The position numbers and the translations under genes are program-made. The notes below the pieces were generated by a model that was not told where the DNA came from, did no database searches, and saw nothing but the letters and a program-made list of their open reading frames with translations. Source: Vibrio sp. Of7-15 (GTDB lineage Bacteria; Pseudomonadota; Gammaproteobacteria; Enterobacterales; Vibrionaceae). Taken from it: a DNA stretch of 64,000 nt. Location: positions 1 through 64,000 of the forward strand of contig NZ_JAKRGH010000025.1 of assembly GCF_022347565.1 (NCBI RefSeq). Reading direction: 5' to 3'. Positions 36,417-42,904 of this stretch are shown here, piece after piece; position 1 is the first letter of the stretch, and the number at the start of each line of letters is the position of its first letter.

Positions 36417-36522
36417 CGACATCATGCCCATAATTTTTAACTTATCGTAGGTAGCAGTTTATAAATGGCAGCAAAGGTTTGCCTTTCATACGCACTGGGT
36501 GAGTATTCAATCACACTGAAAA

Positions 36523-37035
36523 CTAAGAAAGCAGTGCCTTTGCTAATTCAACCTCATGAAGAATGTAATCATCAAGTTGCTCAGAGTTAGTTTCTCCGGT
36601 GGCTTGATAACCTTGAGAGGAATAAAAACGAAGAGCGGATTCATTCGATTCTAGCGAAGATAATACAACCTTTTCATAATCGAGTCTGACGAGTTCCGAC
36701 TCACAACGCGCAAGTAACAATGAACCAATACCTTTTCTATAAAAATCAGGGCGTACATACAAGGTGCTCACTTTTGCTATTTTTCCCGTATCGTCACCTC
36801 GAAAATCATCAAAACACATAAAACCGACAATGTCATGATCATACGCCGCCACAAACACATGTGCTAATTGCTCGCCCACCATTCTAGTCCACAATTTATG
36901 TCGGCGCTCATAAGAAAACCGAGCAATGTAGCTTTCTGGCATCAATCCCTTATACGCAACAGCCCACGAATTAACATGTAAATTTGCTATGGCACTGACA
37001 TCTTCCATGACAGCTTTTCTGACGTTGTAGCTCAT
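36523..37035 (-). CDS. GNAT family N-acetyltransferase
   Basis: RKGIGSLLLARCESELVRLDYEKVVLSS shows the GNAT fold. Length is 170 aa. Confidence 0.8.
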   Translation of the reverse strand: MSYNVRKAVMEDVSAIANLHVNSWAVAYKGLMPESYIARFSYERRHKLWTRMVGEQLAHVFVAAYDHDIVGFMCFDDFRGDDTGKIAKVSTLYVRPDFYRKGIGSLLLARCESELVRLDYEKVVLSSLESNESALRFYSSQGYQATGETNSEQLDDYILHEVELAKALLS

Positions 37036-37275
37036 TCACTCTTTCCTTACCATGATCATTCCTTAATCTGTACCAAAGAAGGCATACAGAAATGCAAACT
37101 TCACAAAAAAGCCGAGCCTCAATATAGCTCGACTTACAAGAAACAATAACCGCCTTCTTAAGCAGTCTTAAAAATTTGTATTACAGTGTCTAGATAAGCT
37201 CAATTTTTGCGTTGAGTTTTTACTAACGCTACCAATAATGCTTCTTGCTTTCATATTAGAGCCCAAATGATGATC

Positions 37276-38190
37276 TTACTGCTTATTTGTGTTGCTGTAA
37301 TCGAATTGCGCATAACCAAACGCAGGGCTCAACAATTTATACAAACTCTTCAGTTCAAAAGTCGTTGCCATGTTGATATCTTCTGAGCTGTATTTGGATT
37401 CCAATTCAAATGACACCGTAATAGGAGTATTGAAAAAGACATCCGTAATTGAGTAATGATCGTTGCCAGTGCCGTAATACGGACTAAACGGTAACGATTC
37501 ATATCGGCCATTAAGCTGGATGAGGTCACTCTCTAACTTGGATACTGTTTTCTTATAGCAACCTTCATCGACACACTTTTTGAATGTGTATTTAACCTGA
37601 TTTACCGATTGATCTTCTAGAGAAGGATCCGTTTGAAAAACAATTTTAGGCGTTAGCGATTTTTTGTTAATTGTCTCTTTAGAAACCTTGAATATAAGCT
37701 CATAAGAGACATCGGATAGACCGCTTTTGAATTCCTGATCAACAATTATATCCATTTCATCCACACCAAAATGGCATGAAATATTATCTTTGTTGCAAGT
37801 CGCAATCGTTTCTTCATATGGCAGGTGATAAATGGCATCCATGGTGATCGCATTTTTCACAAGAAGAGCATGCTCTTTTGTGGATGAATTTTTGATCGGT
37901 TTTCCGCTCCTATCCACCACGATGATACGGCCCGTTTTACAATCAATAAGAGTGAATGTGCCATCACCATTAAAACCAACAGATCGAACTCTTTTACTTG
38001 GATCTTCATCAATCTGATAAGAGTTATATACCGTACATAACTGACTTGAAACAGACAGTTCTTGGTGATTAATGCTTGTCGGTATTTGTACTTTTCCTTG
38101 CCAATGAGCGCTCGTTTTTTCGGCACTTTCACTTTTATCACATCCTTGTAGTAATCCTATTACAGTTAATAGTATTGCTACGTTTTTCAT
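37276..38190 (-). CDS. Hypothetical lipoprotein
   Basis: Lipobox LLQGC after a signal peptide (MKNVAILLTVIGLLQGCDKS). Length is 304 aa. Confidence 0.6.
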   Translation of the reverse strand: MKNVAILLTVIGLLQGCDKSESAEKTSAHWQGKVQIPTSINHQELSVSSQLCTVYNSYQIDEDPSKRVRSVGFNGDGTFTLIDCKTGRIIVVDRSGKPIKNSSTKEHALLVKNAITMDAIYHLPYEETIATCNKDNISCHFGVDEMDIIVDQEFKSGLSDVSYELIFKVSKETINKKSLTPKIVFQTDPSLEDQSVNQVKYTFKKCVDEGCYKKTVSKLESDLIQLNGRYESLPFSPYYGTGNDHYSITDVFFNTPITVSFELESKYSSEDINMATTFELKSLYKLLSPAFGYAQFDYSNTNKQ

Positions 38191-38454
38191 CTTCCACTCT
38201 ATATTGAACAGTGTATTTAATTAAAGTGGAATTATATCGCCTTTTGCAAACGAATCACCATCTGTATTTGTGGTTTAAAAAGGAATTTTCTCAACGGCTA
38301 TCGCACAAAAAACGTCCCCTTTATCATATCAACTGAAGTATTAATATTTTTTATAAATTATGGGAGACACATCTGCTTATCTCAATGAAAGACATGGAAG
38401 CATTAATGAGCGTTATGGTTATTAGTCTGGAGTCTGTATGGTGGACTTAAATAA

Positions 38455-39456
38455 ATGTTGAAAATCGATAATTTGGCTTCGGAAATGGACTTCAAAGATC
38501 GTTATTTTACAGTATTAGACTCTCTACCAGATCATATTTTTGTTTTTTCTGAATCGGGCAGCTACGTTGATGTCTACGGCGGAGAAGAGAATGAAACGGG
38601 CTTTGATTGCAAATCCTTCATTGGTCGCTCGCTTTATGAAGTATCTCCCCCTGACATGGCAAAAAAGTTTCATGCTTATATTAGAGCAGCGCTAGAAAGC
38701 AATAAAATCCAAGTGATCAAATACAAATTTGATAAGCAAGAGATGATTGATTTGCCTGATCACGTCTCGACCCCTATGGAAATTTGGTTCGAAGGCATTA
38801 TTAAACCACTTACCCTTATAGAAAATAACGAAAGAACCGTTGTGTGGATGGCAAAGAACATCACGGAGCGTCATTACTTAGAGCAGCGCTTAAAAACACT
38901 TTCTGAGATAGATGAATTAACAGGGATTTACAATAGACGCTCATTCACCAGCTCTCTTTCAAAATCGTTAGAACGCTTCCACTCAGAGCAACGTTCTTTT
39001 TCCTTACTGATGATTGATATAGATAGATTTAAACGAATCAATGATTCTATCGGGCATTCATCTGGTGATGATGTGATTAACCATGTTGTCTCGATATTTC
39101 AGTCAGAATTAGCCCCAACACACTGTATTGGCCGGCTAGGGGGCGAAGAATTTTCGGTAATACTCGATGGCACCACACCATTAAACGCCCTATGTGTCGC
39201 CGAAAAAATCAGAGCAAAAATTGAAAAATCCCCCTGCAAAACAGGAGAGTATACAGTGCAAGCAACCGTCAGTATCGGCGTTACTGGTGTACTTAAAAAC
39301 GATGACGACATCAAAAATCTGTTATCCCGGGCGGATAAGGCCATGTACCATTCAAAAACTAGCGGAAGAAACCGAGTCAGCTTATATACAGAAGATATAG
39401 AGCGGAACAATAGACGCTCAACGGACGGAATACAAATATTAAACGACACAACTTAA
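38455..39456 (+). CDS. Diguanylate cyclase (GGDEF) with an N-terminal PAS-like sensor
   Basis: Active-site GGEEF within IGRLGGEEFSVIL, preceded by the RRSF I-site-like motif. Length is 333 aa. Confidence 0.85.
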   Translation: MLKIDNLASEMDFKDRYFTVLDSLPDHIFVFSESGSYVDVYGGEENETGFDCKSFIGRSLYEVSPPDMAKKFHAYIRAALESNKIQVIKYKFDKQEMIDLPDHVSTPMEIWFEGIIKPLTLIENNERTVVWMAKNITERHYLEQRLKTLSEIDELTGIYNRRSFTSSLSKSLERFHSEQRSFSLLMIDIDRFKRINDSIGHSSGDDVINHVVSIFQSELAPTHCIGRLGGEEFSVILDGTTPLNALCVAEKIRAKIEKSPCKTGEYTVQATVSIGVTGVLKNDDDIKNLLSRADKAMYHSKTSGRNRVSLYTEDIERNNRRSTDGIQILNDTT

Positions 39457-39506
39457 TCACGCTCACCTGTTCACTCAATCAGCATTTGTAATCAACGGAA
39501 AATTAA

Positions 39507-40676
39507 ATGGATTTAAGACACTGTTCGGGATTCACCTTACCACTCCAAAAAGGGCCATTTCAGAATAATGGAGCAACGCCTTGGTATTGCGAACTAGGGA
39601 TTGGCTCTCCTGCGCAAAAACTCAAAATGTGCTTTGACACTGGCAGTAACTTCAACTGGGTAACATCCAATCTCTGCTCAGATGATGGCTGCAAGCATTA
39701 TGCAAATGCTCGCTTTAATTTAAATTTGTCTTCAACGTTTGAATGGATAAACCAAGACGTACAATCGGTCAATTTTGGGCCATGGGGCACAATGCAAGTA
39801 GAAACAGGAAGAGATCGTTTATGCCTCCCCTACCATCACGGCCCCTCAATTGTTAGTGATCTCTTTTTAGCCTCTGAATATTCTGGCACTCAGTTTGAAG
39901 AACTCGACTGGGATGGTGGGATCGGCCTGCCAAGCTCTCAAGACATAACAGCGATTGCTCCAAGTGCTTCTTATCCTTTTAGGGGGCACCACACGAATAC
40001 CAATTCAAATGAAGACTTTAATTTTTTCTTAACACTACTAAAAATGGGGCTGGTAGGCACTTCTACCCCTTATATTTCAGTACAAACAGAGCCACTGTGC
40101 GATCACCCAACAGGCTATATTGGGTTTGGCACATTGGATAGGTCTTACGCCTCTTCTCTTGAATATTTGTTTCTGCCTTGGTCGTGTTACCAACAAGAGG
40201 CCAGTTATTTATGGACAACAGCCAACACAACCGTAAAAGTCAATGGCAACACCATTGGCACCAACATGTTTTTTGCCCTAGATACTGGTTCATCGCAATT
40301 TAAAGGGGACAACTCAGTGTTAACCCAAGTGTATAACTTAACAAAAAACGATGGTCCCCCTGTCTCTATTATGCTCTCAGATGAAAATGGCATTGAATAT
40401 GGTGAATTAAACATCACTAGAGATATATACCAATGCAAAATAGAGGCAGGAGAGAAAAAAGGCAAAGTAGTTTCACAATTCCAAGGACTACCTGGGGCAG
40501 ACGACATGCTACTGGTTGGCTCTGTGTTAATGGATCACCTTTACACTGTGTACGAATATGAAGTGATCTCCAACAATGATATTCGCCCTAAAGGCGTCTG
40601 GATTTTCAATAAGCCGAATGGCCCCAAAATTATAAAAAACAGACAAACTTCCACTGCCTCATTATTCTCTCGTTAA
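39507..40676 (+). CDS. Pepsin-like (family A1) aspartic protease homologue, no signal peptide
   Basis: Two catalytic DTGS motifs arranged as in bilobal pepsins: YCELGIGSPAQKLKMCFDTGSNFNWV in the first lobe (compare pepsin Y.G.I.IGTPPQ.F.V.FDTGSS..WV) and FFALDTGSSQF in the second. Length is 389 aa, with a hydrophilic N-terminus. Confidence 0.8.
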   Translation: MDLRHCSGFTLPLQKGPFQNNGATPWYCELGIGSPAQKLKMCFDTGSNFNWVTSNLCSDDGCKHYANARFNLNLSSTFEWINQDVQSVNFGPWGTMQVETGRDRLCLPYHHGPSIVSDLFLASEYSGTQFEELDWDGGIGLPSSQDITAIAPSASYPFRGHHTNTNSNEDFNFFLTLLKMGLVGTSTPYISVQTEPLCDHPTGYIGFGTLDRSYASSLEYLFLPWSCYQQEASYLWTTANTTVKVNGNTIGTNMFFALDTGSSQFKGDNSVLTQVYNLTKNDGPPVSIMLSDENGIEYGELNITRDIYQCKIEAGEKKGKVVSQFQGLPGADDMLLVGSVLMDHLYTVYEYEVISNNDIRPKGVWIFNKPNGPKIIKNRQTSTASLFSR

Positions 40677-40691
40677 AGGATACATCGATTC

Positions 40692-41465
40692 ATGAACACG
40701 TGTTTATCTGGAATCTGGACCAACTCTTTCGGCTCCAAAATGTCTCTCATCGTCGATGGTACTCAAATCATTGGTACCTATTCTTCTCATACTGGATCGA
40801 CTGGGGAATACCGCCTAATCGGTCATTGCTCGAAACTGAGTCCATCTGAGCAGTTAGGCCAAAGCATCGCTATCTCTATTTACTGGAAGAATATTCACGA
40901 TGGGGTTAAAGATGAAAGCTGGCATTGGTCTGGCACGATGTGTGGCCAACTACAACTAGATGGCACCATGACCTTAACCAACGCCATTGTGGTGTCAGTC
41001 GCATTTGAGCATTATCAGAAAGGAAATTACATTGATGAACTGGTATTTAGTAAAAATGGTCAACTCAGCCAACCCGAGATGGATGCGATCCACCAGCACT
41101 TCACGCTAAAAGAACCAACTTTGCCGTCTTATCCATTAGTCGGAAAATGGCAAAATAACACTCTCACGCTCGATATTAATCAGCCCCATCCCATCTCCGG
41201 CTACACACAAGCACACTTAATTACACCAGGTATCGAGCTCACCCTTTCTGGCTTTATCGATGTAGATGCACACAAAAATATGGCACAAAGTTTATCACTG
41301 TCAGGCTATAACCCCATTACAGAAGAAACCATATCCATGTCAGGTATGCTTGATTACAGCAGCCATCATTTAACCTTATATTCTTGGTCAGCACAACCAA
41401 CGTCACCTGAAGACAGCTTCATGCAAACACAAATGAGGGCCCTTCAGTTTGAAAAGAGCGGATAA
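40692..41465 (+). CDS. Tandem avidin/streptavidin-like domain protein, no signal peptide
   Basis: Residues 5-125 align with the streptavidin core: GIWTNSFGSKMSL..GTYSSHTGSTGEYRLIG...ISIYWKN...WHWSGT against GTWYNQLGSTFIV..GTYESAVGNAESRYVLTG...WTVAWKN...TTWSGQ. Several biotin-contact positions (Asn, Ser, Tyr, Ser, Trp, Trp) are retained. A second, weaker repeat (LVGKWQNNTLTL...ISGYTQ...LTLYSWSA) follows. It is 16 bp downstream of the A1 protease gene. Confidence 0.7.
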   Translation: MNTCLSGIWTNSFGSKMSLIVDGTQIIGTYSSHTGSTGEYRLIGHCSKLSPSEQLGQSIAISIYWKNIHDGVKDESWHWSGTMCGQLQLDGTMTLTNAIVVSVAFEHYQKGNYIDELVFSKNGQLSQPEMDAIHQHFTLKEPTLPSYPLVGKWQNNTLTLDINQPHPISGYTQAHLITPGIELTLSGFIDVDAHKNMAQSLSLSGYNPITEETISMSGMLDYSSHHLTLYSWSAQPTSPEDSFMQTQMRALQFEKSG

Positions 41466-41866
41466 AGAGGCTTTTCTTTAAGTAAGTTAGTTAATGGCAA
41501 AAACAGTGGTTCAGGTAGGTGGTTCACATCGCACCATTGCCACTGTTTACATTTATCGATTTCTTTTACTTCAGGCTCACCTGAATGGCACTCAGCAGCA
41601 ACAAACAGAGTAATATAATGCTTGCCTTCTTCTTTGAAAATGTCATTCGTAAAACTAAGCTTGGTTACGGATTCAATGGCTAACCCCGTTTCTTCAAAAA
41701 CCTCACGTTGAGCGCATTTCTCTATGCTCTCACCAACTTCCAAATGCCCACCCGGAGTAGCCCACGTGTTTGCACCATGAGAGCCAATTCGCTCTCCCAA
41801 TAAGATTCGATTATTCCTGATAATAATACACCTACCCCAACTCGAACTTCTTTCGTCATCGTTTAC
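41444..41866 (-). CDS. NUDIX hydrolase, N-terminus apparently frameshifted
   Basis: Nudix box GGHLEVGESIEKCAQREVFEETGL. The ORF as listed starts at Met 41800 inside the fold. A canonical N-terminus (MTKEVRVGVGVLL…) exists from ATG 41866 in another frame, and the two frames meet at a TTATTATTAT run. Confidence 0.6.
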   Translation of the reverse strand, partial: VNDDERSSSWGRCIIIRNNRILLGERIGSHGANTWATPGGHLEVGESIEKCAQREVFEETGLAIESVTKLSFTNDIFKEEGKHYITLFVAAECHSGEPEVKEIDKCKQWQWCDVNHLPEPLFLPLTNLLKEKPLYPLFSN

Positions 41867-41888
41867 ATTCCTTTTTATCCCTGATCGA

Positions 41889-42224
41889 CTACCAAACCAG
41901 CACTTTAAAAATACACAAAATGAGACTCACCGATATCAGCCCTATCCAGCCTAATATTTGGGTCACTTTTTCAGGTGAGGCCGGATTAAAATGAGGGAAC
42001 AATATCGCCCCGAAAGAAACTAAAGGAACATATTCATAAAGCTGGCCTGTCCTCACCGAGGTTCCATTTAATTGAGAAGGTAAAAATAAATAGACAACGA
42101 TATACAGCGCCATAAATACCATGGCACAATAGATTTGCCGTTCGACAAACTCACCGCGATTGACGTAAAAAAAGCACAGAGCTAAGCCCAGTGCCACTCC
42201 TATCAAAACCATAAAGGCCCACAC
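41889..42224 (-). CDS. Hypothetical small membrane protein
   Basis: Three hydrophobic helices on a 111-aa protein. Confidence 0.4.
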   Translation of the reverse strand: MWAFMVLIGVALGLALCFFYVNRGEFVERQIYCAMVFMALYIVVYLFLPSQLNGTSVRTGQLYEYVPLVSFGAILFPHFNPASPEKVTQILGWIGLISVSLILCIFKVLVW

Positions 42225-42277
42225 TCCCTCACTTTCAGAACTAAATCAGCTTCTCTGCCATAACACCACACCAAAGG

Positions 42278-42904
42278 TTAGCCATCACTCTTAAGCTGTT
42301 TATTAGCCGCAGATCTTACACGGAGCTCAGAGCCAAACAAAATTAGCGCCCCCAAGCTAAAACTAAGTACATGCCCGAGCTTAGGAAGGTGATACTCACT
42401 AAAAAACACATCTAAAGAAAAGGCAGGCAAAATGGTTAAGACTAAGACAAAAAACGCAATACGCCCGACCACCTCCCCTTTCAAGAATTTAACTAACCCA
42501 GCAGCAGCTAAACCTAACACAGCCTGAGATGCACCTGTACCCAAATTCCAAGGCTCAGGGACTGTAAACGTACTTGCGAATGTACCAATGGAACCCGCTA
42601 CAAACCAAATTGAAAGAAAGGTCATCGATCCAATTTTACATTCAAACAAAAAACCAAGAGCCACGAGAGACAAAACATTGTAAATCATATGAGGTTGCTT
42701 CACATGAATTAACTGGGAAGCAACCAGCCTCCAAAGTTCATAGTTCAAAAGATGCTTAAACGTATAGCCGCCATATGGCTCTAGCTCAGGCACTTTGATT
42801 TGTCCAAATAGCGAACCTGATATCTGATAATGAACCACTAATGACACTATCACCGTCGCTAATGCCAATAAAATAGTCACATATGGTAGACATCTGGATA
42901 CCAC
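42278..42904 (-). CDS. Rhomboid-family intramembrane serine protease, rhombosortase candidate
   Basis: Rhomboid TM2 motif WRLVASQLIHVKQPHMIYNVLSL (WR…H…H..N), a TM4 Ser motif GASQAVLGL (GxSx), and the TM6 His in GHVLSFSLGAL. Its small size (208 aa) is typical of rhombosortase. Two GlyGly-CTERM substrates are encoded about 10 kb upstream. Confidence 0.6.
   Translation of the reverse strand: MVSRCLPYVTILLALATVIVSLVVHYQISGSLFGQIKVPELEPYGGYTFKHLLNYELWRLVASQLIHVKQPHMIYNVLSLVALGFLFECKIGSMTFLSIWFVAGSIGTFASTFTVPEPWNLGTGASQAVLGLAAAGLVKFLKGEVVGRIAFFVLVLTILPAFSLDVFFSEYHLPKLGHVLSFSLGALILFGSELRVRSAANKQLKSDG

What the first reader, a model, noticed from the sequence alone, without database searches (positions are those of the whole stretch)
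39507..41465. Two-gene operon encoding a pepsin-like aspartic protease and a tandem avidin/streptavidin-like protein, both without signal peptides
Both folds are overwhelmingly eukaryotic. Pepsin (A1) homologues are known from only a handful of marine gammaproteobacteria, and bacterial avidins are few. A tandem (double-domain) avidin-like protein paired with an A1 protease, 16 bp apart on the same strand, is to my knowledge not a described arrangement. Neither protein has a signal peptide, which suggests a cytoplasmic pair rather than a secreted biotin scavenger and protease. The function is open.
Basis: partly seen in the sequence, partly recalled or inferred. Interest (0 to 1): 0.75.

Follow-up and report, generated by a model that had tools for sequence, protein, structure and literature searches.

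The report
Pepsin-like protease with double-barrel avidin partner
A marine Vibrio carries a cytoplasmic pepsin-type protease gene coupled to a gene for a "double streptavidin" protein and preceded by a c-di-GMP synthase gene; the pairing is real and conserved and was partly described in 2021 as a fused protein, but its function is still unknown.

Summary
ORF 39507-40676 encodes an A1 (pepsin-family) protease with both catalytic Asp-Thr-Gly-Ser motifs. ORF 40692-41465 encodes a two-barrel avidin-fold protein. Only 15 nt separate them, and neither has a signal peptide.

Protease and avidin module are adjacent or fused in 14 of 16 loci examined, from gamma-, alpha- and delta-proteobacteria. Spacers run from -4 to +37 nt, and fusions occur in both domain orders. 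A GGDEF diguanylate cyclase gene lies next to them in 12 of 16 loci, so the window unit is probably a three-gene cassette starting at 38455.

The arrangement is not undescribed. Laitinen et al. 2021 reported "Extended-clade" avidins and A1-peptidase-avidin fusions, and the window protein is 50-52% identical to members of their set. I did not find three points in the papers searched: the second barrel, the operon form, and the c-di-GMP link. The characterised shewasins form a separate clade without avidin partners.

My best mechanism is a ligand- or tag-recognition subunit of a cytoplasmic protease. This is an inference.

The parts
38455..39456 (+). Soluble PAS-GGDEF diguanylate cyclase (333 aa, GGEEF active-site motif, no RxxD I-site seen). 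Probable first gene of the cassette.
   Evidence: Pfam GGDEF 142.8 bits and PAS_4 25.8 bits. An orthologue (55-65% identity) lies directly upstream of the pepsin gene in L001-L004 and L009. A GGDEF gene holds the same position in L014 and L015. No N-terminal hydrophobic segment.
39457..39506 (+). 50-nt spacer between the GGDEF and protease genes.
   Evidence: Sequence read. No + strand terminator-like or promoter-like site was reported here.
39507..40676 (+). A1 (pepsin-family) aspartic protease, 389 aa, with no signal peptide and no propeptide. It belongs to the Marinomonas/Sinorhizobium-type clade of bacterial pepsin homologues.
   Evidence: Pfam Asp 61 bits. PDB sequence hits to chymosin and pepsin at E 1e-8. 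100% identical to NCBI 'A1 family peptidase [Vibrio sp. Of7-15]'. The model of the homologous fusion P0041 matches plasmepsin X, proteinase A, chymosin and renin with TM 0.73-0.81.
39636..39647 (+). First catalytic motif, D44-T-G-S.
   Evidence: D44 is invariant in 68 of 68 clade members.
39774..39788 (+). Flap motif F90-G-P-W-G. Phe replaces the pepsin flap residue Tyr75.
   Evidence: Invariant in 68 of 68. Rawlings & Bateman list Phe at this site for the Marinomonas and Sinorhizobium homologues.
40281..40292 (+). Second catalytic motif, D259-T-G-S.
   Evidence: D259, G261 and S263 are invariant in 68 of 68.
40677..40691 (+). 15-nt spacer with an AGGA ribosome-binding site (40677-40680), 11 nt before the ATG.
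   Evidence: In homologous loci the spacer runs from -4 to +37 nt, including overlapping stop and start codons.
40692..41465 (+). Single-chain double-barrel avidin-fold protein (257 aa), a member of the 'Extended' clade of putative avidins.
40704..41060 (+). N-terminal barrel (residues ~5-123), the ligand-pocket-bearing avidin domain.
   Evidence: Strands 7-10, 16-22, 25-32, 38-46, 57-64, 80-87, 92-101 and 111-123. N11, S15, Y30, S32, G35, W65 and W79 correspond to streptavidin N23, S27, Y43, S45, G48, W79 and W92, and are invariant in 47 of 47. The N-barrel HMM hits streptavidin at E 8e-12.
41061..41138 (+). Inter-barrel linker with a helix (residues 127-135).
   Evidence: DSSP on the model. 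pLDDT falls to 79-85 in this stretch. The linker is variable in sequence and length across the family.
41139..41456 (+). C-terminal barrel (residues ~150-255), a degenerate second avidin-like barrel without the biotin-contact residues.
   Evidence: Eight strands between residues 151 and 255. hhalign N-barrel against C-barrel: 93% probability, E 3.5e-7, 105 columns. Only G151, W153, G170, G187, D190 and G218 are invariant. This is the ~150-aa 'extension' left unassigned in PMC8033661.

Best explanation
The window holds a cytoplasmic cassette of three genes: a PAS-GGDEF diguanylate cyclase, an A1 (pepsin-type) protease, and a single-chain double-barrel avidin.

The protease and the avidin-like protein are two halves of one functional unit. 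Here they are translationally coupled. In other bacteria they are one polypeptide, in the same order.

The avidin-like protein is an internally duplicated streptavidin fold. Its two barrels pack like the two subunits of a streptavidin dimer. Only the N-terminal barrel keeps the pocket residues that grip the ureido group of biotin.

Most likely it is the ligand- or tag-recognition subunit of the protease. The N-barrel pocket would bind biotin, biotinyl-lysine, a related ureido or lactam compound, or a short peptide. That binding would either bring a substrate to the protease or switch on a protease that has no propeptide to restrain it. The cassette is expressed together with, and probably wired into, c-di-GMP synthesis.

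Shown: folds, internal duplication, residue conservation, intact catalytic sites, absence of export signals, gene linkage and fusions.

Inferred: physical complex, identity of the ligand, direction of control, connection with c-di-GMP.
For: Functional unit:
- The pair is adjacent or fused in 14 of 16 loci from Vibrionales, Alteromonadales, Oceanospirillales, Pseudomonas, Sphingomonas, Desulfuromonas and Woeseiaceae.
- Spacers run from -4 to +37 nt.
- About 29 of the 120 best pepsin hits are pepsin-avidin fusions. The four read in full are joined exactly where the window genes are split.
- Reverse-order fusions also exist.

Active protease:
- D44 and D259, both psi-loops and the flap motif are invariant in 68 of 68.

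Pocket-bearing receptor:
- The streptavidin ureido-binding residues N23, S27, Y43 and S45, plus W79 and W92, are invariant in 47 of 47.
- The lid loop has the same length as in streptavidin.
- The N-barrel carries 17 invariant positions against 6 in the C-barrel.

Rigid pseudo-dimer:

Cytoplasmic location:
- No signal peptides.
- The literature reports the same for bacterial pepsin homologues.

Signalling link:
- A GGDEF gene is adjacent on the same strand in 12 of 16 loci, in two different architectures. One has PAS-GGDEF upstream. The other has a hybrid histidine kinase plus REC-GGDEF downstream.
Against: - Biotin binding is not established. Streptavidin D128 aligns with an invariant Leu, although a near-invariant Asp sits two residues earlier. 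W108 becomes Asn or His. No clear W120 equivalent exists. The S88/T90 region is a helical turn in the model.
- The Pfam and HMM alignments stop after strand 6.
- The fusion model has pTM of only 0.69 with a low-confidence linker. No defined docking of the avidin module on the protease was obtained, and no coordinates or PAE could be inspected.
- Some members stand alone: V. cholerae has the protease without the avidin gene (L009), and L007 has the avidin gene without the protease. Distant tandem avidins carry signal peptides. The module can therefore work outside this partnership.
- A tight cytoplasmic biotin binder would be expected to be toxic (PMC8033661).
- Four of 16 loci lack a GGDEF neighbour.
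Confidence: 0.45

Rival explanations
1. The double-barrel protein is a dedicated inhibitor or chaperone of the protease, standing in for the missing propeptide. It keeps the pepsin-like enzyme latent in the cytoplasm until a signal or ligand releases it.
For: - The protease has no prosegment.
- Authors of the shewasin D study proposed a latent cytoplasmic form and unknown regulators for bacterial pepsins.
- Tight translational coupling and fusions fit a 1:1 inhibitor.
- From general knowledge: related calycin-type barrels include protease inhibitors.
Against: - Strong conservation of a buried ligand pocket is not needed for a plain inhibitor.
- V. cholerae keeps the protease without the partner.
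- The fusion model gives no confident docking.
Confidence: 0.2
2. One barrel is a receptor for the c-di-GMP made by the co-encoded cyclase, making the unit a c-di-GMP-gated protease.
For: - A GGDEF gene is adjacent in 12 of 16 loci, in two architectures.
- The C-barrel has its own invariant residues.
Against: - The Cap15 similarity is generic. De novo designed barrels score the same Z, and sequence identity is 7%.
- No known c-di-GMP-binding motif was identified.
- The avidin pocket is sized for a ligand of about 250 Da (general knowledge).
- Four of 16 loci lack a cyclase neighbour.
Confidence: 0.1
3. It is a biotin-sequestering antimicrobial or defence factor, as proposed for avidins in general. 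It would be released by lysis or non-classical secretion, with the protease as an accessory weapon.
For: - Laitinen et al. link the peptidase fusion to 'avidin's defence function'.
- Distant tandem avidins and one reverse-order fusion do carry signal peptides.
- The distribution among Vibrio strains is patchy, as for an accessory trait.
Against: - This clade lacks signal peptides throughout.
- No match to defence-system models.
- The neighbours are cytoplasmic signalling proteins, not secretion or toxin genes.
- Only one of the two barrels keeps the pocket.
Confidence: 0.1
4. The pocket ligand is not biotin but a hydantoin, ureide or lactam metabolite, and the module senses such compounds.
For: - Hydantoinase A/B genes lie directly upstream of the avidin gene in L005 and L007, and near the fusion in L011 together with an Asp/Glu-racemase-family gene.
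- Racemase, urate-oxidase and amidohydrolase genes lie near L014.
- The ureido-oxygen triad is kept while the residues that hold the rest of biotin are changed.
Against: - The evidence is anecdotal. L005 and L007 are related MAGs.
- The Vibrio-type loci, including the window, show no such neighbours.
- No statistics were done.
Confidence: 0.1
5. The adjacency is coincidental, and the second ORF is not really avidin-related.
For: The Pfam Avidin match is modest (29.7 bits) and covers only one third of the protein.
Against: Structure, profile and conservation evidence all contradict this. So do the 14 of 16 linked loci and the many fusions.
Confidence: 0.01

Closest known systems
'Extended' clade putative avidins and A1-peptidase-avidin fusion proteins (Laitinen et al. 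2021, BMC Ecol Evol 21:53, PMC8033661)
   Same: Same protein family. The window protein is 52% identical to VIBR_GENO and 50% to ENTE_CALV over its full length. It has the same avidin domain plus ~150-aa extension. The association with a bacterial pepsin homologue is the same, and the fusions have the same domain order as the window genes.
   Different: Here the two parts are separate, translationally coupled genes. The paper does not report that unfused Extended avidins lie next to pepsin genes. Yet its MARI_MEDI sequence is exactly the gene after the pepsin gene in L008. It could not assign the extension to a fold, and it does not mention GGDEF neighbours. None of these proteins has been tested for biotin binding or proteolysis.
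Engineered single-chain dimeric streptavidin (scdSav, PDB 6s4q/6s50) and dual-chain avidin
   Different: Those are laboratory constructs with two functional biotin sites. This one is natural, 16-18% identical to them, and its second barrel has lost the pocket residues. I found no natural tandem avidin described in the papers searched.
Bacterial pepsin homologues of the Marinomonas/Sinorhizobium group (Rawlings & Bateman 2009, PMC2761423)
   Same: Bilobed A1 peptidase with two Asp-Thr/Ser-Gly sites and Phe at the flap Tyr position. It has no signal peptide or propeptide. It is 43-49% identical to Marinomonas homologues.
   Different: That paper did not look at gene neighbours. No member of this group has been characterised biochemically, as far as the papers searched show.
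Shewasin A and shewasin D (characterised cytoplasmic pepsin homologues of Shewanella; PMC4814920)
   Same: Bacterial A1 peptidases without signal peptide. Shewasin D is cytoplasmic, pepstatin-sensitive, has an acidic optimum, and may exist in a latent form.
   Different: A different clade. BLASTP against shewasin D gives no significant match (E 0.22). None of the 120 best shewasin relatives listed (of 202 hits) carries an avidin domain. Their conserved neighbours are an Acetyltransf_3 gene and a TP_methylase gene, not an avidin.
Ligand-gated or adaptor-directed proteases (DegS-type PDZ gating; Gid4-type barrel degron receptors). This is an analogy only.
   Different: There is no homology beyond the generic barrel. 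The analogy is my inference and has not been tested.

Membership tests
Peptidase family A1 (pepsin) | Match to the family profile above the curated threshold | tested here: met
   Pfam PF00026: 61 bits against 19.9, residues 27-352. PDB sequence hits to chymosin, pepsin and cathepsin E at E ~1e-8.
Peptidase family A1 (pepsin) | Two catalytic Asp-Thr/Ser-Gly motifs, each followed by a hydrophobic-hydrophobic-Gly psi-loop | tested here: met
   D44-T-G-S and D259-T-G-S. Psi-loops D-G-G-I-G-L and L-V-G-S. The Asp residues are invariant in 68 of 68.
Peptidase family A1 (pepsin) | Bilobal pepsin fold | tested here: met
   Tested on the 46%-identical fusion P0041, not on the window protein itself. 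pLDDT 89.3. TM 0.73-0.81 to plasmepsin X, proteinase A, chymosin and renin.
Peptidase family A1 (pepsin) | Flap tyrosine (pepsin Tyr75) | tested here: not met
   Replaced by Phe90 in an invariant F-G-P-W-G motif. The same holds for the Marinomonas and Sinorhizobium homologues. This is a clade trait, not a disqualifier.
Peptidase family A1 (pepsin) | Signal peptide and N-terminal propeptide (typical of eukaryotic members) | tested here: not met
   The ORF starts ~25 residues before the first conserved strand, and there is no hydrophobic segment. Known for bacterial homologues.
Peptidase family A1 (pepsin) | Pepstatin-sensitive endopeptidase activity | not testable with these tools
   Needs a biochemical assay.
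Avidin/streptavidin family (PF01382) | Match to the family profile above the curated threshold | tested here: met
   29.7 bits against 24, residues 5-86. NCBI names the identical protein 'avidin/streptavidin family protein'.
Avidin/streptavidin family (PF01382) | Eight-stranded antiparallel beta-barrel of the avidin type | tested here: met
   [not shown]
Avidin/streptavidin family (PF01382) | Conserved biotin-contact residues | tested here: inconclusive
   Kept and invariant: the equivalents of N23, S27, Y43, S45, G48, W79 and W92. Changed or uncertain: W108 to N/H, D128 to invariant Leu (Asp two residues earlier), W120, S88 and T90.
Avidin/streptavidin family (PF01382) | High-affinity biotin binding | not testable with these tools
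   Needs HABA, ITC or fluorescent-biotin assays.
Avidin/streptavidin family (PF01382) | Dimer or tetramer of identical subunits | tested here: not met
   Replaced by an intrachain pseudo-dimer of two diverged barrels. Any higher oligomeric state is unknown.
'Extended' clade avidins / protease-avidin fusions (Laitinen 2021) | Avidin domain followed by a ~150-aa conserved C-terminal extension | tested here: met
   257 aa, with the avidin domain at 5-123 and the extension at 124-257. Full-length 50-52% identity to ENTE_CALV and VIBR_GENO from their Additional file 2.
'Extended' clade avidins / protease-avidin fusions (Laitinen 2021) | Covalent fusion to an A1 peptidase domain | tested here: not met
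   Separate genes 15 nt apart. The fusion form is found in relatives. The paper itself lists unfused members.
Shewasins (Shewanella/Colwellia pepsin homologues) | Sequence relatedness to shewasin A/D | tested here: not met
   BLASTP against shewasin D gives E 0.22. The gene context differs.
Anti-phage defence systems (PADLOC models) | Match of any cassette protein to a defence-system model | tested here: not met
   No hit, apart from one marginal match at E 0.005 to PDC-S15.

The most novel reading that the evidence does not exclude
The cassette is a previously unrecognised kind of cytoplasmic signalling protease. A natural single-chain avidin pseudo-dimer would act as the receptor. Its ligand could be biotin or biotinylated carboxylase subunits, a ureide-type metabolite, a peptide degron, or a nucleotide messenger. 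The receptor would direct or gate a pepsin-type protease, which is functionally coupled to c-di-GMP synthesis. If the ligand is biotinyl-lysine, this would be a natural 'biotin-tag degrader' able to shut down biotin-dependent carboxylases.
Probability: 0.3. Interest if true: 0.8.

Novelty: new member of a known kind. Interest (0 to 1): 0.58.

Why it matters
Pepsin-family proteases and avidins are textbook secreted proteins. A conserved cytoplasmic partnership of the two raises a clear and testable question: what does an intracellular avidin bind, and what does the protease cut?

The analysis adds four concrete points to the one published description:
- The unassigned 'extension' is a second, degenerate avidin barrel, giving a natural counterpart of engineered single-chain dimeric streptavidin.
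- The separate-gene operon was the commoner form in this sample (11 of the 16 loci, 2 fused).
- The partnership is confined to the uncharacterised Marinomonas-type pepsin clade, not the studied shewasins.
- It travels with diguanylate cyclase genes.

A naturally monomeric two-barrel avidin with a single pocket could also interest protein engineers. The function remains unknown, and the basic association is already in the literature, which limits the surprise.

Tried and rejected
1. The search for related loci with the full 18-sequence alignment failed because no stretch was conserved enough. It worked with 12 closer sequences.
2. The NCBIfam scan gave no family for either protein.
3. The PADLOC scan gave no credible defence-system match.
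4. The Rfam scan of 36500-42500 found no RNA family, so no riboswitch is evident upstream.
5. Inter-domain docking from the fusion model could not be read. Only pTM 0.69 is available, with no coordinates or PAE. The inhibitor and targeting models therefore remain unseparated.
6. The AFDB Foldseek library was not available.
7. I tested whether the PAS sensor of the Vibrio-type cyclase and that of the histidine kinases are specifically related. BLASTP found nothing significant.
8. I checked whether shewasins share the avidin partner. They do not.
9. Mapping of the last third of the biotin pocket (strands 7-8) by MAFFT and HMM alignment stays ambiguous.
10. Literature searches for avidin with shewasin, for pepsin-like with diguanylate cyclase, and for natural tandem avidins returned only Laitinen 2021 and engineering papers.
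Full report
**1. What is in the sequence**

The two ORFs exist as stated, on the + strand: 39507-40676 (389 aa) and 40692-41465 (257 aa). The stop TAA is at 40674-40676 and the ATG at 40692. The spacer is therefore 15 nt, and it carries AGGA at 40677-40680. The consensus scan found no promoter-like or terminator-like site between them. Both proteins are 100% identical to entries from Vibrio sp. Of7-15. NCBI names them 'A1 family peptidase' and 'avidin/streptavidin family protein'.

A PAS-GGDEF diguanylate cyclase ORF (38455-39456, Pfam GGDEF 142.8 bits) ends 50 nt upstream on the same strand, with no terminator-like site in between. The gene upstream of that is divergent. A NUDIX ORF converges on the avidin gene and overlaps its 3' end by 22 nt. 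The likely transcription unit is thus three genes. Other neighbours are unrelated: a GNAT gene, a rhomboid gene, hypotheticals, and a two-component pair further away. No Rfam family matches the region.

**2. The protease**

Pfam Asp scores 61 bits against a cutoff of 19.9. Chymosin, pepsin and cathepsin E are the best solved relatives by sequence. In an alignment of 68 clade members the following are invariant:
- D44 and D259
- both psi-loops
- the flap motif F-G-P-W-G

Phe stands at the position of pepsin Tyr75, as Rawlings & Bateman listed for the Marinomonas and Sinorhizobium homologues. There is no room for a propeptide and no hydrophobic N-terminal segment. A model of the 46%-identical natural fusion P0041 (pLDDT 89.3) matches plasmepsin X, proteinase A, chymosin and renin with TM 0.73-0.81.

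The enzyme therefore looks catalytically competent and under purifying selection. It is not a shewasin. BLASTP against shewasin D, whose sequence I took from the supplement of PMC4814920, gives no significant alignment.

**3. The avidin-like protein**

Pfam Avidin matches residues 5-86 (29.7 bits against 24). With a 47-sequence alignment AlphaFold2 gives pLDDT 92.6 and pTM 0.90. The model has two eight-stranded barrels (about 5-123 and 150-255) joined by a helix-containing linker.

| Search | Target | Result |
|---|---|---|
| Foldseek, PDB | scdSav 6s50/6s4q | E 5e-11, TM 0.75-0.79, both barrels aligned |
| hhalign, N-barrel vs C-barrel | internal | 93% probability, E 3.5e-7 |

The two barrels pack as in a streptavidin dimer.

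In the alignment to them, the N-barrel keeps the equivalents of N23, S27, Y43, S45, G48, W79 and W92 in all 47 family members. The lid loop has the same length. Other contacts differ:
- W108 becomes Asn or His.
- D128 aligns with an invariant Leu, while a near-invariant Asp lies two residues earlier.
- There is no clear W120 equivalent.
- The S88/T90 stretch is a helical turn in the model.

The C-barrel has none of these residues. Binding of biotin or a biotin-like ureido compound by the N-barrel is plausible but not shown.

**4. Conservation of the pair**

A genome scan with the avidin-like family returned seven loci. Look-ups for pepsin homologues gave eight more in this clade. Including the window, that makes 16 loci.

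| Loci | Arrangement |
|---|---|
| Window, L001 (Vibrio sp. F74), L002 (Motilimonas), L003 (Psychromonas), L004 (Enterovibrio), L014 (Agarivorans), L015 (V. salinus) | GGDEF, protease, avidin |
| L006 (Celerinatantimonas), L008 (Marinomonas mediterranea), L010 (Desulfuromonas) | protease, avidin, hybrid histidine kinase, REC-GGDEF |
| L012 (V. tapetis) | protease-avidin fusion, kinase, REC-GGDEF |
| L011 (Pseudomonas cedrina) | fusion alone |
| L013 (Sphingomonas) | pair followed by IS elements |
| L005 (Woeseiaceae) | avidin followed by a divergent, lipoprotein-type pepsin |
| L007 (Woeseiaceae) | avidin only |
| L009 (V. cholerae) | PAS-GGDEF plus protease, no avidin |

Protease and avidin module are adjacent or fused in 14 of 16 loci, and a GGDEF gene is adjacent in 12 of 16. 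Spacers between protease stop and avidin start run from -4 to +37 nt.

Among the 120 best pepsin hits, about 29 are 630-680-aa proteins carrying both Pfam domains. In the four I read, the protease is N-terminal and the junction lies exactly where the window genes are split. Reverse-order fusions also exist.

An exhaustive profile search of 1.84 billion representative proteins found 281 relatives with E <= 1e-3, of which 190 reach E <= 1e-10. Nearly all are 250-280 aa and match over the full length. The two-barrel architecture is thus a rare but well-defined family. Some distant members carry signal peptides.

**5. What is already known**

- Rawlings & Bateman 2009 (PMC2761423) described bacterial pepsin homologues in two groups. 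All lack signal peptides.
- Shewasin D is cytoplasmic and pepstatin-sensitive (PMC4814920).
- Laitinen et al. 2021 (PMC8033661) defined an 'Extended' clade of putative avidins with a ~150-aa C-terminal extension. InterPro and CDD could not assign that extension. [quoted passage not shown]

Their Additional file 2 contains ENTE_CALV and VIBR_GENO, which are 50% and 52% identical to the window protein. It also contains MARI_MEDI, which is identical to the gene directly downstream of the pepsin gene in L008. The family and its association with A1 peptidases are therefore published.

Four points do not appear in that paper or in other papers searched:
- identification of the extension as a second avidin barrel forming an intrachain pseudo-dimer
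- the fact that unfused members are operon partners of unfused pepsins
- the restriction to the non-shewasin clade
- the recurrent GGDEF or kinase neighbours

Shewasin-type genes have a different conserved neighbourhood: an Acetyltransf_3 gene followed by a TP_methylase gene. None of the 120 best shewasin relatives listed (of 202 hits) carries an avidin domain.

**6. Mechanism**

The following is shown:
- an intact protease
- a rigid double barrel with one conserved pocket
- no export signals
- tight gene coupling, and fusion in both orders
- frequent linkage to soluble c-di-GMP-synthesis proteins

From this I infer that the two proteins act as one unit, probably a complex. The double barrel most likely serves as the ligand- or tag-recognition subunit that recruits substrate to, or gates, a protease lacking a propeptide (confidence about 0.45).

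The rivals are:
- a dedicated inhibitor or chaperone (0.2)
- a c-di-GMP receptor (0.1)
- a released biotin-scavenging defence factor (0.1)
- a sensor for hydantoin- or ureide-type ligands (0.1)

The last rival is prompted by hydantoinase A/B genes directly upstream of the avidin gene in L005 and L007 and near the fusion in L011.

The fusion model's pTM of 0.69 and its low-confidence linker do not fix a docking geometry. The inhibitor and targeting models therefore cannot be separated here. No defence-system model matches.

**7. Verdict**

The locus is a new member of a known but uncharacterised kind. Interest is moderate to high because the biology is unresolved and directly testable: an intracellular avidin coupled to a pepsin-type protease and to c-di-GMP genes.

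Noticed in passing
L005:1900-7968 and L007:4197-7957; L011:1-4472; L014:8091-11161: Hydantoinase A and B genes lie directly upstream, on the same strand, of the tandem-avidin gene in both Woeseiaceae loci. The P. cedrina fusion locus has HyuA/HyuB, an Asp/Glu-racemase-family gene and an MFS transporter just upstream. The Agarivorans locus has racemase-family, urate-oxidase-N and amidohydrolase genes downstream. This may hint at a hydantoin- or ureide-type ligand rather than biotin.
   Followed up: partly
protein P0228: A 5032-aa protein matches the C-terminal (degenerate) barrel part of the profile in 17 separate stretches. It looks like a giant protein built from repeats of this barrel.
   Followed up: no
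L016:5001-7715 and L017:5001-7893: Shewasin-type pepsin genes (a shewasin D-like one and the Colwellia psychrerythraea one) are each followed by an Acetyltransf_3 (GNAT) gene and a TP_methylase gene. A large GGDEF protein lies a few kb further on. There is no avidin-like gene.
   Followed up: partly
L009:3972-6149: Some Vibrio cholerae strains carry the PAS-GGDEF gene plus the pepsin-like gene but no avidin-like gene. The next gene is a convergent GDPD gene. The protease can evidently persist without its usual partner.
   Followed up: partly
L005:8777-10096: The divergent pepsin homologue downstream of the avidin gene in a Woeseiaceae MAG is 27% identical to the window protease. Its N-terminus looks like a lipoprotein signal (..LAVVAAMLGAC..), unlike the rest of the clade.
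   Followed up: partly
proteins P0243, P0260, P0267, P0272, P0251: Distant members of the two-barrel avidin family carry N-terminal signal-peptide-like segments. One is a reverse-order avidin-pepsin fusion (P0251). A secreted branch of the family therefore exists.
   Followed up: partly
[not shown]
   Followed up: no
L012:8024-10721: In Vibrio tapetis the hybrid histidine kinase downstream of the fusion gene is split into two adjacent ORFs: PAS-HisKA, then HATPase-REC-Hpt. This may be a frameshift, a pseudogene or a sequencing error.
   Followed up: no
window 41444-41800 (-): A NUDIX hydrolase ORF converges on the avidin-like gene and overlaps its last 22 nt.
   Followed up: no
window 37276-38190 (-): A 304-aa ORF has a lipoprotein-type N-terminus (..LLQGC..) and no significant Pfam family. 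It is divergent from the GGDEF gene.
   Followed up: no
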